13,856 bases of DNA from a virus. The notes under the pieces were generated by a model. The model saw nothing but the letters and a program-made list of their open reading frames with translations, was not told the DNA's origin and ran no database searches. Both the position numbers and the translations under genes were made by a program. Below are positions 10,968-11,939 of the stretch, one piece after another. Where the stretch lies: the IMG/VR virus record IMGVR_UViG_3300025000_001631; one strand, written 5' to 3'. Within the stretch, counting starts at the first letter, position 1; each line of letters starts with the position of its first letter.

Positions 10968-11186
10968 TCATTTACCTCCCTTCCTTTTCCCACACCACTT
11001 AGGAGTTACATATAAACCAGATCTTTTAATGCCCCTGCCCCCCATTCTAGCCCACATATTAAAATCAGGATTGCAAGAATCCATACAGTGTCCAATAGCA
11101 CTGGTCATTTTGAACCACCAAGATTTATCTGTCCAAACTTTCTTTTTAAAGAATATGCATCCCCTGCAACCTGTAGGTAATCTCAT
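10968..11186 (-). CDS. Small, highly basic Cys/Trp-rich protein, 72 aa (CRGC...C..C...WCGKRKGGK)
   Basis: Track ORF. GGAGAGAG SD overlaps the M23 gene stop, 4-6 nt before the ATG. It is the last gene before the terminator. Confidence 0.5.
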   Translation of the reverse strand: MRLPTGCRGCIFFKKKVWTDKSWWFKMTSAIGHCMDSCNPDFNMWARMGGRGIKRSGLYVTPKWCGKRKGGK

Positions 11187-11196
11187 AACTCTCTCC

Positions 11197-11751
11197 TCAT
11201 GCCATTTTATACATAATTATAAAAAACACTGCGCATATTAATACTAACCTGCCAATCATTTTGACTCTAGAAAATAAAGGCATTGCTAAAAATAACAACA
11301 AGGCCAACACTATAAATACAGGTTCAACCACATTACTCCACCCATTAGGCCCCCCACCCACATAAGTTAAAGGATTAACTAAGCTACCGTCCTTGATAAG
11401 CCTTGTAGTTACATGTATATGTGGGCCAGTTGTGTGTCCCGCACCATGTGTTCCTGGCACTCCCCCTGATAGACCTATGGTCTCTCCTGCTATTACATGC
11501 TGACCATAGGTCACATTGATTTGTGAGAGGTGGCCCACAACCATCTGTACACCATTGTCTAAGTCTACAAAGATGCACCTGCCCAACAATGGGTCAATTT
11601 TGATTAGTTTAATTACACCATCATTAGGTACTTGCACCTGAGTTCCAACAGGAGTAGCAAAATCTACTCCTGTGTGTGGTTTGGGGTGGAAATCATCCAC
11701 TTCAAGGTAGTCACTAGTAATAGGAAAATGAGCCATCTCAACATCTACCAT
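11197..11751 (-). CDS. M23 (LytM/lysostaphin-type) zinc metallopeptidase with two C-terminal TM helices, 184 aa
   Basis: HxxxD (PHTGVDFATP) and HxH (GTHGAGHTTGPHIHVTT) motifs in the canonical order, plus GETIGLSGG. The C-terminal hydrophobic stretches are VVEPVFIVLALLLFLAMPLF and IGRLVLICAVFFIIMY. GGGGGG lies 6 nt before the ATG. Confidence 0.85.
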   Translation of the reverse strand: MVDVEMAHFPITSDYLEVDDFHPKPHTGVDFATPVGTQVQVPNDGVIKLIKIDPLLGRCIFVDLDNGVQMVVGHLSQINVTYGQHVIAGETIGLSGGVPGTHGAGHTTGPHIHVTTRLIKDGSLVNPLTYVGGGPNGWSNVVEPVFIVLALLLFLAMPLFSRVKMIGRLVLICAVFFIIMYKMA

Positions 11752-11762
11752 ATCAATCCCCC

Positions 11763-11939
11763 CTAATAGTCATTAGGATCTTTATGCCACCAGTTCCTGA
11801 GCTTCTCCATATCCTCTTCAAGCTTACCTAAGGTGTGAGTCACAACTACTACAGTCAGTAATAGCAGCACTGCCATTATCTTACCCATTGTAGAAGCCAT
11901 TATAAAGTGTGATACTAGGACTCCTATTAGTACCCACAC
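11763..11939 (-). CDS. Holin-like small membrane protein, 58 aa, two TM segments and a charged C-terminus (GTG-start form VWVLIGVLVSHFIMASTMGKIMAVLLLLTVVVVTHTLGKLEEDMEKLRNWWHKDPNDY); absent from the track
   Basis: Hand translation of the 11752-11950 gap. GGGGAG lies 5 nt before the GTG at 11937-11939. The TAG at 11763-11765 is followed directly by the SD of the M23 gene. An alternative in-frame ATG would give 46 aa. Confidence 0.5.
   Translation of the reverse strand: MWVLIGVLVSHFIMASTMGKIMAVLLLLTVVVVTHTLGKLEEDMEKLRNWWHKDPNDY

What the first reader, a model, noticed from the sequence alone, without database searches (positions are those of the whole stretch)
10968..11939. Holin-like two-TM peptide, C-terminally membrane-anchored M23 peptidase and a basic Cys-rich peptide, co-transcribed from an early-type promoter
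A 58-aa two-TM protein with a charged tail sits immediately before an M23 peptidase (HxxxD and HxH intact) that unusually has two C-terminal TM helices. The start codons are tightly coupled. A 72-aa Lys/Arg/Trp/Cys-rich peptide follows, then a strong terminator. The arrangement resembles a holin-endolysin cassette, but it sits in the same operon as the SprT-like gene under a host-sigma-A-type promoter. A C-terminal TM anchor on an M23 enzyme is atypical for a Gram-positive endolysin. Other possibilities are a membrane-tethered peptidoglycan-remodelling or superinfection-exclusion module, or a non-canonical lysis system.
Basis: partly seen in the sequence, partly recalled or inferred. Interest (0 to 1): 0.55.

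Follow-up and report, generated by a model that had tools for sequence, protein, structure and literature searches.

The report
Membrane-tethered phage wall-cutting enzyme operon
A groundwater SPO1-like phage carries an early operon with an intact M23 cell-wall peptidase anchored by a C-terminal membrane hairpin; this enzyme type normally sits next to a secretion-type ATPase in Bacillus-group phages, so it is probably an accessory wall-remodelling module and not the phage's lysis cassette.

Summary
Three tightly spaced minus-strand genes are real and under purifying selection. They encode a 58-aa hydrophobic hairpin protein, a 184-aa M23 peptidase with all catalytic residues and two C-terminal TM helices, and a 72-aa basic Cys/Trp-rich protein. 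They follow a 448-aa gene behind a conserved sigma-A-type promoter and end at a strong terminator.

The holin-endolysin reading is not supported. The phage is SPO1-like: its gene order matches Exiguobacterium phage vB_EalM-132, which lacks the M23 gene at this locus. The nearest M23 relatives share the same architecture. In 32 such loci from phages and Bacillales prophages, 28 lie directly beside an SPP1 gp32-family ATPase, often with a TrbC/VirB2-like gene. At least 11 of these elements also carry a separate canonical lysin or holin. Only this lineage lacks the ATPase nearby.

Charge distribution, and a relative whose M23 has an N-terminal signal anchor, place the catalytic domain outside the membrane. 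The best reading is an accessory, early-expressed, outward-facing tethered peptidoglycan endopeptidase that has lost its link to the secretion-like module.

The 58-aa and 72-aa proteins are lineage-restricted and have no family match. A non-canonical lysis role is not excluded, because the rest of the genome could not be inspected.

The parts
13349..13377 (-). Sigma-A-type promoter candidate of the operon (TTGACT-17 nt-GAAAAT)
   Evidence: The consensus scan scores it 9/12. The -35 TTGAyT and -10 nAwAAT elements are conserved in the window, L007, L048 and Exiguobacterium phage vB_EalM-132, while the flanking sequence diverges. It lies just downstream of the terminator-like hairpin of the preceding gene, about 13440..13400.
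11951..13297 (-). First gene of the operon, 448 aa. N-terminal half matches phrog_6077 (in some phage records these homologs are annotated as histidine-kinase-like ATPase). C-terminal part carries an HExxH motif and is SprT-like.
   Evidence: phrog_6077 E 2.8e-32 over residues 16-253. Pfam SprT-like is weak only (E 0.039), with the motif LVHETIHR. Identity is 44% over 96% of the length to a hypothetical protein of Exiguobacterium phage vB_EalM-132 and 28% to one of Moorella phage MTATph1. Some phage homologs of the N-terminal half are annotated HATPase. dN/dS is 0.03.
11763..11939 (-). 58-aa small membrane protein: two short hydrophobic segments (res 2-17 and 21-37) and a charged C-terminal tail with a conserved RNWWHKD motif
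   Evidence: Hydropathy. Orthologs of 58-59 aa at 59-100% identity occur in the same position, and dN/dS is 0.16. There is no Pfam, PHROGs, NCBIfam or PADLOC family match. It sits in the position that a TrbC/VirB2-like gene occupies in related modules, but it does not match that HMM.
11371..11679 (-). M23 (LytM-type) catalytic domain of the 184-aa protein (residues about 25-127; whole gene 11197..11751)
   Evidence: Pfam PF01551 65.7 bits. Zn and catalytic residues H26, D30, H74, H111 and H113 are invariant. PDB sequence matches include Pgp3, ShyA and EnpA. The AF2 domain has pLDDT 75-91, and Foldseek top hits are ShyA, EnpA and lysostaphin. It shares the GG[VL]PGxxGAGH insertion with P0003-P0006 and with the L031 protein.
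11206..11331 (-). C-terminal two-helix membrane hairpin of the M23 protein (residues about 141-182) with the basic loop SRVKMIGR
   Evidence: Hydropathy peaks. AF2 predicts helices 145-156 and 162-183 at low confidence. The loop is +3 and the pre-TM flank is -1, and the same pattern holds in 28 family representatives (loop +1 to +3, flank 0 to -5). By the positive-inside rule this predicts N-out/C-out.
10968..11186 (-). 72-aa basic (net +13) Trp/Cys-rich protein; possibly zinc-binding (CxxC...HC...C)
   Evidence: Composition. C7, C10, H33, C34 and C65 are conserved in three orthologs; C38 is not. pN 0.19 against pS 0.85. The 5.8-billion-protein search found only its own lineage. The AF2 model is unusable at pLDDT 42.
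10898..10937 (-). Intrinsic terminator that closes the operon
   Evidence: A 12-bp stem with 7 GC pairs, a 6-nt loop and TTTTTT. It is the dominant hairpin in the RNA fold of the intergenic region. In one strain lineage (L017), two extra genes are inserted here.

Best explanation
This is an early-expressed accessory operon of an SPO1-like (Herelleviridae-type) phage whose host is probably Gram-positive.

Its central product is a catalytically competent M23 peptidoglycan endopeptidase. It has no signal peptide and is held in the cytoplasmic membrane by a C-terminal two-helix hairpin. The basic loop of the hairpin is predicted to stay in the cytoplasm, so the M23 domain would face the cell wall. 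From there it would cut peptide cross-links only in the layer next to the membrane. That is local wall remodelling, not wholesale lysis.

The protein belongs to a phage family that is normally one component of a small secretion-like cassette: a TrbC/VirB2-like protein, a hairpin membrane protein, and an SPP1 gp32-family P-loop ATPase. In that cassette the M23 enzyme plausibly plays the role that wall hydrolases play in type IV secretion and conjugation systems. In this lineage the enzyme has been captured without the ATPase and inserted into the operon headed by the 448-aa gene. The 58-aa hairpin protein now occupies the upstream partner position.

What is shown: gene reality, the M23 active site and fold, hydrophobic hairpin, family architecture, the genomic association, the accessory status, and the conserved promoter and terminator.

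What is inferred: the outward topology, peptidoglycan as the substrate, a partnership with the 58-aa protein, and the biological purpose. The 72-aa basic Cys-rich protein is probably a separate small zinc-binding factor that belongs with the operon and not with the enzyme.
For: 1. M23 domain. It matches Pfam well above the cut-off, all catalytic residues are present, and the fold matches ShyA, EnpA and lysostaphin.

2. Nearest relatives. The closest non-orthologous relatives (P0003 52% identity, E 2e-37; also P0004 and P0007) have the same N-terminal M23 plus C-terminal hairpin. They sit between a TrbC-like gene (Pfam TrbC 31.5 bits against a cut-off of 27.9) and a 770-825-aa phrog_5156 protein, the family of SPP1 gene 32.

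3. Census. Of 32 loci with this architecture from IMG/VR and GTDB genomes, 28 have the gp32-family gene adjacent on the same strand. One more has it 0.9 kb away. Two have an FtsK-like ATPase about 1 kb away. Only the window's own lineage has neither. No gp32-like sequence occurs in the window or in the 10-kb flanks of its relatives.

4. Published view of the module. HHpred links gp32 to TrwB, VirB4 and FtsK, and Godinho et al. propose that gp31.1, gp31.2 and gp32 form an early membrane translocon that is non-essential (PMC6316719; GenBank note).

5. Separate lysis genes. Elements carrying the family have separate canonical lysis genes. L013 has XhlA and Amidase_3, and 10 of the 32 loci have lysin or holin homologs within 6 kb.

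6. Accessory status. The collinear Exiguobacterium phage and a Moorella phage have the 448-aa gene but no M23 gene.

7. Topology. Relative L048 has, after the 448-aa gene, an M23 with an N-terminal signal anchor, which argues for an extracytoplasmic site of action. Positive-inside charge bias is found across 28 representatives.

8. Transcription. The sigma-A-type promoter is conserved and a strong terminator closes the operon.
Against: - No canonical endolysin or holin could be located for this phage. Only about 30 kb of a roughly 142-kb genome was accessible, so a lysis role is not excluded.
- Export of a 140-residue N-terminal domain without a signal peptide is unusual, and the topology rests on charge bias alone.
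- Sequence-level homology between the window's hairpin and SPP1 gp31.2 is not detectable (hhalign probability below 5%). In L031 the compact M23-hairpin coexists with a separate gp31.2-like protein, so the hairpin may be a distinct element.
- The 58-aa protein does not match the TrbC-like HMM.
- My own profile search of the gp32 family against the PDB gave only weak hits (TdpA 1e-3, DotL 0.07). The 'VirB4-like' label therefore rests on published HHpred results.
- Early transcription does not exclude lysis, because the SPP1 early operon PE5 includes lysis genes.
Confidence: 0.55

Rival explanations
1. A non-canonical lysis cassette. The 58-aa protein acts as a small class-II-type holin or pinholin. 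The M23 protein is a membrane-tethered endolysin, kept harmless while the membrane is energised and activated or released when the holin depolarises it. This would mirror a SAR endolysin, but with a C-terminal tether.
For: - The small two-segment membrane protein has a charged tail and sits 11 nt upstream of a muralytic enzyme.
- Both genes are conserved together in the two lineages that have the hairpin-type M23.
- No other lysis gene was seen in the accessible ~30 kb.
- SPP1 shows that lysis genes can sit in early operons.
Against: - The 58-aa protein matches no holin family.
- The M23-hairpin family co-occurs with separate canonical lysins and holins and with a translocase-type ATPase in 28 of 32 loci.
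- The gene is absent from the collinear cultured relative.
- A recombination breakpoint separates the 58-aa gene from M23: the upstream part is 100% identical while M23 has dS 0.35.
- A two-helix hairpin is not an obviously releasable anchor.
Confidence: 0.2
2. A superinfection-exclusion or competition module. The tethered enzyme, expressed early, alters the inner face of the wall or its cross-bridges. Later-arriving phages then cannot penetrate or eject DNA, or the cell envelope is otherwise conditioned for the resident phage.
For: - The conserved sigma-A-type promoter predicts early expression.
- The gene behaves like an accessory 'moron': it is absent or differently anchored in relatives.
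- It lies in a strain-variable spot where many metagenome contigs break and where M23 and the 72-aa gene diverge faster than the upstream genes.
Against: - There is no match to any known defence or exclusion family (PADLOC).
- No known exclusion system uses an M23 hydrolase, as far as I know.
- This reading does not explain the near-obligate linkage of the family to a gp32-type ATPase.
Confidence: 0.1
3. The hairpin inserts with both ends inside the cell, so the M23 domain is cytoplasmic. It then either processes a non-peptidoglycan substrate or waits for membrane rupture.
For: The protein has no signal peptide. Default insertion of a C-terminal hairpin could leave a large, already folded N-terminal domain in the cytoplasm.
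Against: - Charge bias is consistent across 28 family representatives: basic loop, acidic pre-TM flank.
- The syntenic M23 of L048 carries an N-terminal signal anchor.
- All closest solved homologs act on peptidoglycan.
Confidence: 0.07
4. The M23 protein is a virion or ejection protein whose hydrophobic end is buried in the particle or inserts into the host membrane during infection.
For: M23 domains occur in tape-measure, internal and ejection proteins (PHROGs hits; cyanophage A4 pre-ejectosome 9k2v).
Against: - The gene lies in an operon with a sigma-A-type promoter among replication genes (ligase, gp33/gp34, UvrD), far from structural genes in the collinear reference phage.
- Family members sit beside an ATPase and TrbC-like genes, not tail genes.
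- AF2 does not pack the helices onto the domain.
Confidence: 0.03

Closest known systems
SPP1 early membrane module gp31.1 / gp31.2 / gp32 (Godinho et al. 2018, PMC6316719)
   Same: The nearest homologs of the window's M23-hairpin protein sit in exactly this cassette: a TrbC-like gene (the gp31.1 family), a hairpin protein, and a gp32-family ATPase. In several phages the M23 domain is fused to a C-terminus that matches gp31.2 at E about 1e-30. Like this operon, the SPP1 module is expressed early. In SPP1, gp31.2 and gp32 are non-essential.
   Different: The window lineage has no gp32-family ATPase within ±10 kb. Its 58-aa upstream protein does not match the TrbC-like HMM. Its hairpin shows no significant profile similarity to gp31.2. 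SPP1 itself has no M23 domain.
Peptidoglycan hydrolases of type IV secretion and Gram-positive conjugation systems (VirB1, CwlT, TcpG, PrgK; from general knowledge)
   Same: These are membrane-associated wall hydrolases encoded beside a VirB4-type ATPase and small pilin-like or VirB3-like membrane proteins. They are thought to open the wall locally for an envelope-spanning machine.
   Different: Those enzymes are lytic transglycosylases or NlpC/P60/CHAP enzymes. They usually have N-terminal anchors or signal peptides. Here the enzyme is an M23 endopeptidase with a C-terminal hairpin, in a phage, and the ATPase is missing.
Holin-endolysin cassettes, including SAR-endolysin/pinholin pairs and signal-peptide endolysins (from general knowledge)
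   Same: A small membrane protein with a charged tail lies immediately upstream of a muralytic enzyme that is itself membrane-associated.
   Different: There is no holin family match. The anchor is C-terminal and two-pass, not an N-terminal releasable SAR or signal sequence. The operon sits among replication genes under a host-type promoter. Family members coexist with canonical lysis cassettes.
Small M23 'metallo-endopeptidases' of Bacillus Herelleviridae (phrog_7767; e.g. Goe8 gp127, Shbh1 gp20)
   Same: This is the best PHROGs family (E 1.2e-24). The M23 domain starts at the very N-terminus and the proteins are about 190-205 aa. They are encoded near small membrane proteins and an FtsK/SpoIIIE-like ATPase.
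   Different: Those proteins lack clearly hydrophobic C-terminal helices. The ATPase lies 2-3 kb away and belongs to a different family (phrog_3551).
Characterised M23 enzymes (ShyA, Pgp3, EnpA, lysostaphin/LytM) and the sporulation protein SpoIIQ
   Same: They share the fold and catalytic motifs. SpoIIQ is likewise a membrane-anchored LytM-domain protein that forms part of a trans-envelope channel (NCBIfam partial match E 1e-9).
   Different: Those proteins have N-terminal signals or anchors and extra domains. According to the literature (not tested here), B. subtilis SpoIIQ is catalytically degenerate, whereas this protein keeps every catalytic residue.

Membership tests
Peptidase family M23 (Pfam PF01551, LytM-type) | Profile match above the curated threshold | tested here: met
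   65.7 bits against a cut-off of 28.7, E 4.3e-18, residues 25-127.
Peptidase family M23 (Pfam PF01551, LytM-type) | Zinc ligands HxxxD and HxH, plus the catalytic histidines | tested here: met
   H26-T-G-V-D30, H74 and H111-I-H113 are invariant across 9 family members and align with solved enzymes.
Peptidase family M23 (Pfam PF01551, LytM-type) | LytM beta-sheet fold | tested here: met
   The AF2 domain has pLDDT 75-91. Foldseek hits are ShyA 2.6e-10, EnpA 4e-10 and lysostaphin 1.5e-8.
Peptidase family M23 (Pfam PF01551, LytM-type) | Peptidoglycan endopeptidase activity | not testable with these tools
   This needs a zymogram or muropeptide analysis.
Phage holin-endolysin lysis cassette | Small protein that belongs to a known holin family | tested here: not met
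   The 58-aa protein has no Pfam, PHROGs or NCBIfam match. Its only homologs are its own orthologs.
Phage holin-endolysin lysis cassette | Generic holin features: small size, at least one TM segment, charged C-terminal tail, adjacency to a muralytic gene | tested here: met
   Hydropathy and an 11-nt spacing to the M23 gene. These features are not specific to holins.
Phage holin-endolysin lysis cassette | Endolysin is soluble or carries an N-terminal signal or SAR sequence | tested here: not met
   There is no N-terminal hydrophobic segment. The hydrophobic hairpin is C-terminal.
Phage holin-endolysin lysis cassette | It is the genome's lysis module: late or lysis-region location, and no other endolysin | tested here: inconclusive
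   The operon lies among replication genes behind a conserved sigma-A-type promoter, and family members coexist with canonical lysins. The rest of this phage's genome could not be read, and the search of vB_EalM-132 for an endolysin found none.
Phage holin-endolysin lysis cassette | Lysis phenotype on expression | not testable with these tools
   This needs an experiment.
SPP1 gp31.1/gp31.2/gp32-type secretion-like phage module | gp32-family (phrog_5156) P-loop ATPase adjacent | tested here: not met
   tblastn with five gp32-family proteins against the window, L001, L007, L008, L016 and L017 gave nothing below E 0.25. By contrast, 28 of 32 homologous loci have the ATPase adjacent.
SPP1 gp31.1/gp31.2/gp32-type secretion-like phage module | TrbC/VirB2-like (gp31.1-family) gene upstream | tested here: not met
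   The 58-aa protein and its ortholog do not match the TrbC-like HMM at E below 1e-4, and Pfam finds nothing. Only the position is equivalent.
SPP1 gp31.1/gp31.2/gp32-type secretion-like phage module | Hairpin protein homologous to gp31.2 | tested here: inconclusive
   hhalign of the window-type hairpin against gp31.2 gives a probability below 5%. Other M23 fusions (L089, L094, L098, L175) match gp31.2 at E about 1e-30. The M23 domain, a shared insertion and the overall architecture link the window protein to ATPase-adjacent members.
SPP1 gp31.1/gp31.2/gp32-type secretion-like phage module | M23 domain orthologous to that of module members | tested here: met
   Best non-orthologous hits are P0003 (52% identity, E 2e-37) and P0004, both located inside such modules. 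L031 is 36% identical over the full length and lies directly after the ATPase.

The most novel reading that the evidence does not exclude
The M23-hairpin proteins, the small pilin-like membrane proteins and the gp32-family ATPase together form a previously undescribed, phage-encoded minimal type-IV-secretion-like conduit across the Gram-positive envelope. The orphan version in this window would then show that the wall hydrolase plus a small hairpin partner is a self-sufficient, transferable unit. It could act, for example, as an early-made tethered lysin that primes or gates envelope opening without an ATPase.
Probability: 0.15. Interest if true: 0.7.

Novelty: new variant of a known kind. Interest (0 to 1): 0.4.

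Why it matters
Membrane-tethered wall hydrolases are standard parts of secretion and conjugation machines. They have not been described as parts of phage-encoded, secretion-like cassettes.

The comparative result here is a near-obligate linkage between a C-terminally anchored M23 enzyme and the SPP1 gp32-type ATPase in Bacillales phages and prophages. This gives the long-unexplained SPP1 31.1-32 region a concrete, testable enzymatic component.

The window supplies a natural 'ATPase-less' variant that could show what the enzyme does on its own.

In practical terms, annotators should not label such genes as endolysins on the strength of the M23 domain and a neighbouring small membrane protein.

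Tried and rejected
- Close DNA relatives: megablast of the region against 50,697 phage records found nothing.
- Defence systems: PADLOC gave no hit for any of the operon proteins or the related module proteins.
- 58-aa and 72-aa proteins: Pfam, PHROGs and NCBIfam gave nothing. The 5.8-billion-protein search found only their own lineage.
- Structure of the 72-aa protein: AF2 gave pLDDT 42, which is unusable.
- 842-aa downstream protein: I tested whether it is the counterpart of the ~800-aa ATPase found next to homologs. BLASTP shows no similarity. It is MVP/SPFH-like instead.
- ATPase in this lineage: tblastn for gp32-family ATPases in all flanks of the window lineage found none.
- Hairpin homology: hhalign of the hairpin against gp31.2 and against the long-form hairpins gave no significant signal.
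- gp32 family against the PDB: the profile search gave only weak hits to TdpA and DotL, and the single-sequence search gave nothing.
- Late promoter: the T4-type late promoter TATAAATA is absent on the coding strand. This test became moot once the gp33/sigma pair was recognised as SPO1 gp33/gp34-like.
- Canonical endolysin of the closest cultured relative: I read the first 50 kb of vB_EalM-132 and ran 8 candidates through Pfam. Nothing was found.
- 448-aa/M23 pairing: I considered whether this pairing is the conserved unit and rejected it. The Exiguobacterium and Moorella phages have the 448-aa gene without M23.
- Literature: searches for C-terminally anchored M23 endolysins and for the Herelleviridae M23/FtsK cluster returned nothing relevant.
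Full report
**What is in the window**

All genes of interest are on the minus strand: a 448-aa gene (13297..11951), a 58-aa gene (11939..11763, GTG start), a 184-aa gene (11751..11197) and a 72-aa gene (11186..10968). The gaps between them are 11, 11 and 10 nt, and each start has a G-rich ribosome-binding site.

The 58-aa protein is hydrophobic over residues 1-37. 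A dip around STMGK splits this stretch into two short segments. A mixed-charge tail follows.

The 184-aa protein matches Pfam Peptidase_M23 at 65.7 bits, against a cut-off of 28.7. It keeps H26xxxD30, H74 and H111xH113 and aligns to solved M23 enzymes. Its AF2 model (domain pLDDT 75-91) superposes on ShyA, EnpA and lysostaphin. Its last ~45 residues form two hydrophobic helices joined by the loop SRVKMIGR.

The 72-aa protein has 10 K, 6 R, 5 W and 5 C, with net charge +13.

A 12-bp, GC-rich hairpin with a T-run follows at 10937..10908.

**Are the genes real?**

The same four-gene block occurs in several groundwater metagenome assemblies. It also occurs in a relative at about 75% nucleotide identity, on a 142-kb contig. 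Against that relative, non-synonymous change is far below synonymous change:

| Gene | pN | pS |
|---|---|---|
| 448-aa | 0.12 | 0.75 |
| 58-aa | 0.23 | 0.67 |
| M23 | 0.15 | 0.62 |
| 72-aa | 0.19 | 0.85 |

The 58-aa ORF keeps its hydrophobic pattern and an RNWWHKD motif. The 72-aa protein keeps C7, C10, H33, C34 and C65.

**Transcription**

A terminator-like hairpin ends the preceding gene at about 13440..13400. It is followed by TTGACT-17-GAAAAT at 13377..13349. On its own this match is no better than chance (7 sites against 9.0 expected). However, both hexamers are conserved at the same distance upstream of the 448-aa homolog in four diverged phages, while the surrounding sequence is not.

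There are no long gaps or internal terminators on the coding strand between the four genes.

**Which phage is this?**

There is no close DNA match in GenBank phages. Upstream flanks carry a DNA ligase, a 'Phage_Gene33' protein and a sigma-like protein.

The 448-aa protein is 44% identical over 96% of its length to a protein of Exiguobacterium phage vB_EalM-132, a 146-kb member of the Herelleviridae. In that phage the order is 5'-3' exonuclease, ligase, SPO1 gp33-like, SPO1 gp34-like sigma, then further genes, the 448-aa homolog, small genes, a terminator, and UvrD helicase. This order is collinear with the window and its flanks.

The phage is therefore SPO1-like and its host is probably a Gram-positive Bacillota member. 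This is an inference from collinearity, not a direct host assignment.

**The M23 gene is an accessory insertion**

The Exiguobacterium phage and Moorella phage MTATph1 both have the 448-aa gene followed by unrelated small soluble proteins, with no M23 gene.

A third relative, L048, has the 448-aa gene, an 83-aa soluble protein, and then an M23 protein. That M23 has an N-terminal hydrophobic signal or anchor and no C-terminal hairpin.

Within the window's own population, the 448-aa and 58-aa genes are 100% identical to those of a sister strain, while M23 (dS 0.35) and the 72-aa gene (dS 0.87) are not. Many metagenome contigs also break exactly here.

The M23 slot is thus a recombination-prone accessory position. 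The L048 variant shows that the enzyme in this slot is meant to act outside the cytoplasm.

**The family of the M23 protein**

Beyond its orthologs, the best hits are 212-233-aa proteins (P0003 52% identity, E 2e-37). These share the N-terminal M23 domain, the GGVPGxxGAGH insertion, a GxSGW motif, and a C-terminal two-helix hairpin with a basic loop.

An exhaustive HMMER search of 1.84 billion cluster representatives found many more such proteins. They include compact 171-178-aa forms that align through the hairpin. In 28 representatives the loop carries +1 to +3 and the segment before the first helix carries 0 to -5. By the positive-inside rule this predicts the loop inside the cell and the M23 domain outside.

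A C-terminal anchor on M23 is therefore a recurrent, though uncharacterised, architecture and not a singular oddity.

**Genomic company of the family**

In the first three loci examined, the M23-hairpin gene lies between two other genes. Upstream is a 121-127-aa protein that matches Pfam TrbC/VirB2 (31.5 bits, cut-off 27.9). Downstream is a 772-824-aa protein of phrog_5156.

phrog_5156 is the family of SPP1 gene 32. A GenBank note for phage 0105phi7-2 records an HHpred match to TrwK/VirB4. Godinho et al. report HHpred matches to TrwB, VirB4 and FtsK. They note that 31.2 and 32 are non-essential, and they propose that gp31.1, gp31.2 and gp32 form an early membrane translocon (PMC6316719). My own profile search against the PDB gave only weak hits, to TdpA (1e-3) and DotL (0.07). 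These are consistent with the HerA/FtsK/VirD4 class but are not decisive.

I then scanned IMG/VR and one genome per GTDB species with the family alignment and classified neighbours with local HMMs. Of the 32 loci encoding a small N-terminal M23 with C-terminal TM segment(s):

| Nearest ATPase | Loci |
|---|---|
| gp32-family gene adjacent, same strand (gap -177 to +618 nt) | 28 |
| gp32-family gene 0.9 kb away | 1 |
| FtsK-like ATPase about 1 kb away | 2 |
| None | 1 |

The single locus with no ATPase is the 142-kb ortholog of the window. The genome hits with this architecture are in Cohnella and Paenibacillus.

Four of the fusions match an HMM of gp31.2 at E about 1e-30 over their C-termini. 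In L031, a compact 177-aa form that is 36% identical to the window protein over its full length follows the ATPase directly. A separate gp31.2-like gene precedes the ATPase there.

For the window-type hairpin itself, profile-profile comparison with gp31.2 is not significant. No gp32-family sequence exists in the window or in the ±10-kb flanks of its relatives.

**Is it the lysis cassette?**

Elements that carry the family have separate canonical lysis genes. Prophage L013 has XhlA and an Amidase_3 about 2 kb upstream. Ten of the 32 loci have homologs of known Bacillus-phage lysins or holins within the fetched 6 kb. This is a lower bound, because only nine reference proteins were used.

The 58-aa protein matches no holin family.

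These points, together with the accessory status of the gene, argue against the holin-endolysin reading. They do not exclude it for this phage, for three reasons:
- I could read only about 30 kb of a ~142-kb genome.
- My attempt to locate the endolysin of the closest cultured relative failed.
- SPP1 shows that early operons can contain lysis genes.

**Most likely mechanism**

The operon is transcribed early by host RNA polymerase. The 58-aa protein and the M23 protein insert into the cytoplasmic membrane. The M23 domain faces the wall and clips peptide cross-links close to the membrane.

In its ancestral context this activity would serve a secretion-like ATPase/pilin-like cassette, much as wall hydrolases serve type IV secretion and conjugation systems (general knowledge). 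Here the enzyme has been captured alone. The 58-aa hairpin protein sits where the TrbC-like partner normally sits, although no homology between the two is detectable.

The purpose in this phage is not determined. It could be wall conditioning, exclusion of competitors, or priming of lysis.

The 72-aa protein is lineage-restricted and could not be modelled. Its conserved CxxC...HC...C pattern suggests a small zinc-binding protein. Small Cys-rich proteins also occur downstream of the 448-aa gene in L048 and in the Moorella phage. It may therefore belong with the operon and not with the enzyme.

**Verdict**

The element is a new variant of a known kind: a membrane-tethered M23 peptidoglycan hydrolase of a phage secretion-like module, here without its ATPase. 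Interest is moderate. The wider finding, that M23-hairpin proteins are near-obligate neighbours of SPP1 gp32-type ATPases, is the more useful lead.

Noticed in passing
window 8327-10855 (minus strand): An 842-aa protein has the major-vault-protein architecture (Pfam MVP_shoulder E 6e-26, Vault_3 E 4e-7, then a long coiled-coil tail). It lies directly after the operon's terminator. Among 50,697 phage records, only three uncultured huge phages (462-735 kb; LR756500, LR756501, LR756503) encode a homolog, at about 43% identity. It is unrelated to the ~800-aa ATPase found in this position in related modules.
   Followed up: partly
window 11951-13297 (minus strand): The 448-aa first gene combines an N-terminal domain (phrog_6077; in some Vibrio phage records these homologs are annotated HATPase or histidine-kinase-like ATPase) with a C-terminal HExxH SprT-like metalloprotease motif. 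The full-length form is conserved in Exiguobacterium phage vB_EalM-132 and Moorella phage MTATph1. The N-terminal half alone is widespread in phages of Gram-negative bacteria.
   Followed up: partly
window 11197-11760, compared with L016/L017: There is a recombination breakpoint at the junction of the 58-aa gene and M23. A sister strain is 100% identical through the 448-aa and 58-aa genes, but M23 has dS 0.35 and the 72-aa gene has dS 0.87. Eight of the 11 M23 substitutions fall in the linker and hairpin. Several metagenome contigs end within or just after M23 and the 72-aa gene, which suggests strain-level hypervariability.
   Followed up: partly
L017 4010-4982 (between window positions 10976 and 10946): One strain lineage carries a ~1-kb insertion at the operon's terminator, before the vault-like gene. 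It encodes a dCMP deaminase and a cytidylyltransferase-like protein.
   Followed up: no
window 8585-8853, compared with L001/L025: In two otherwise 99-100% identical assemblies, about 270 bp of the vault-like gene is replaced by about 100 bp, and gene callers split the gene into fragments. This is either a natural deletion variant or an assembly artefact.
   Followed up: no
window 161-426: There is an 18-bp tandem repeat of 14.8 copies at 82% match. It encodes a perfect-register hexapeptide repeat (SITKDS)n in a 97-aa ORF at 158-451.
   Followed up: no
window 5980-7947, compared with L007 13792-17043 and L048 8962-12192: The UvrD-type helicase is intein-free here (655 aa). In the 142-kb relative and in L048 it carries an intein with a LAGLIDADG endonuclease and is about 1080 aa long.
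   Followed up: no
window 3625-3969 (minus strand); L001 4118-4945: The neighbourhood is rich in membrane-associated accessory proteins. A 114-aa ORF in the window is polytopic-looking by its sequence; it lies in about the same relative position as a 113-aa gene with a Pfam YdjM hit in the relative L007. A Band_7/SPFH protein lies upstream of the operon. The vault-like protein has an SPFH-related shoulder domain. Whether these act together with the tethered M23 enzyme is unknown.
   Followed up: no
window 10833-10964 (minus strand): Metagenome gene callers annotate a 43-aa ORF here. It spans the terminator hairpin and overlaps the start of the vault-like gene, so it is probably spurious.
   Followed up: no
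L023 (Bacillus phage Goe8), L006 (Shbh1), L044/L045/L053: In Bacillus Herelleviridae, the small M23 protein without a clear TM hairpin sits in a conserved cluster. The order is a ParM-like partition protein, the M23 protein, small membrane proteins, a ~450-aa membrane protein, and then an FtsK/SpoIIIE-like ATPase. This is a second, parallel association of this M23 subfamily with a translocase-type ATPase.
   Followed up: partly
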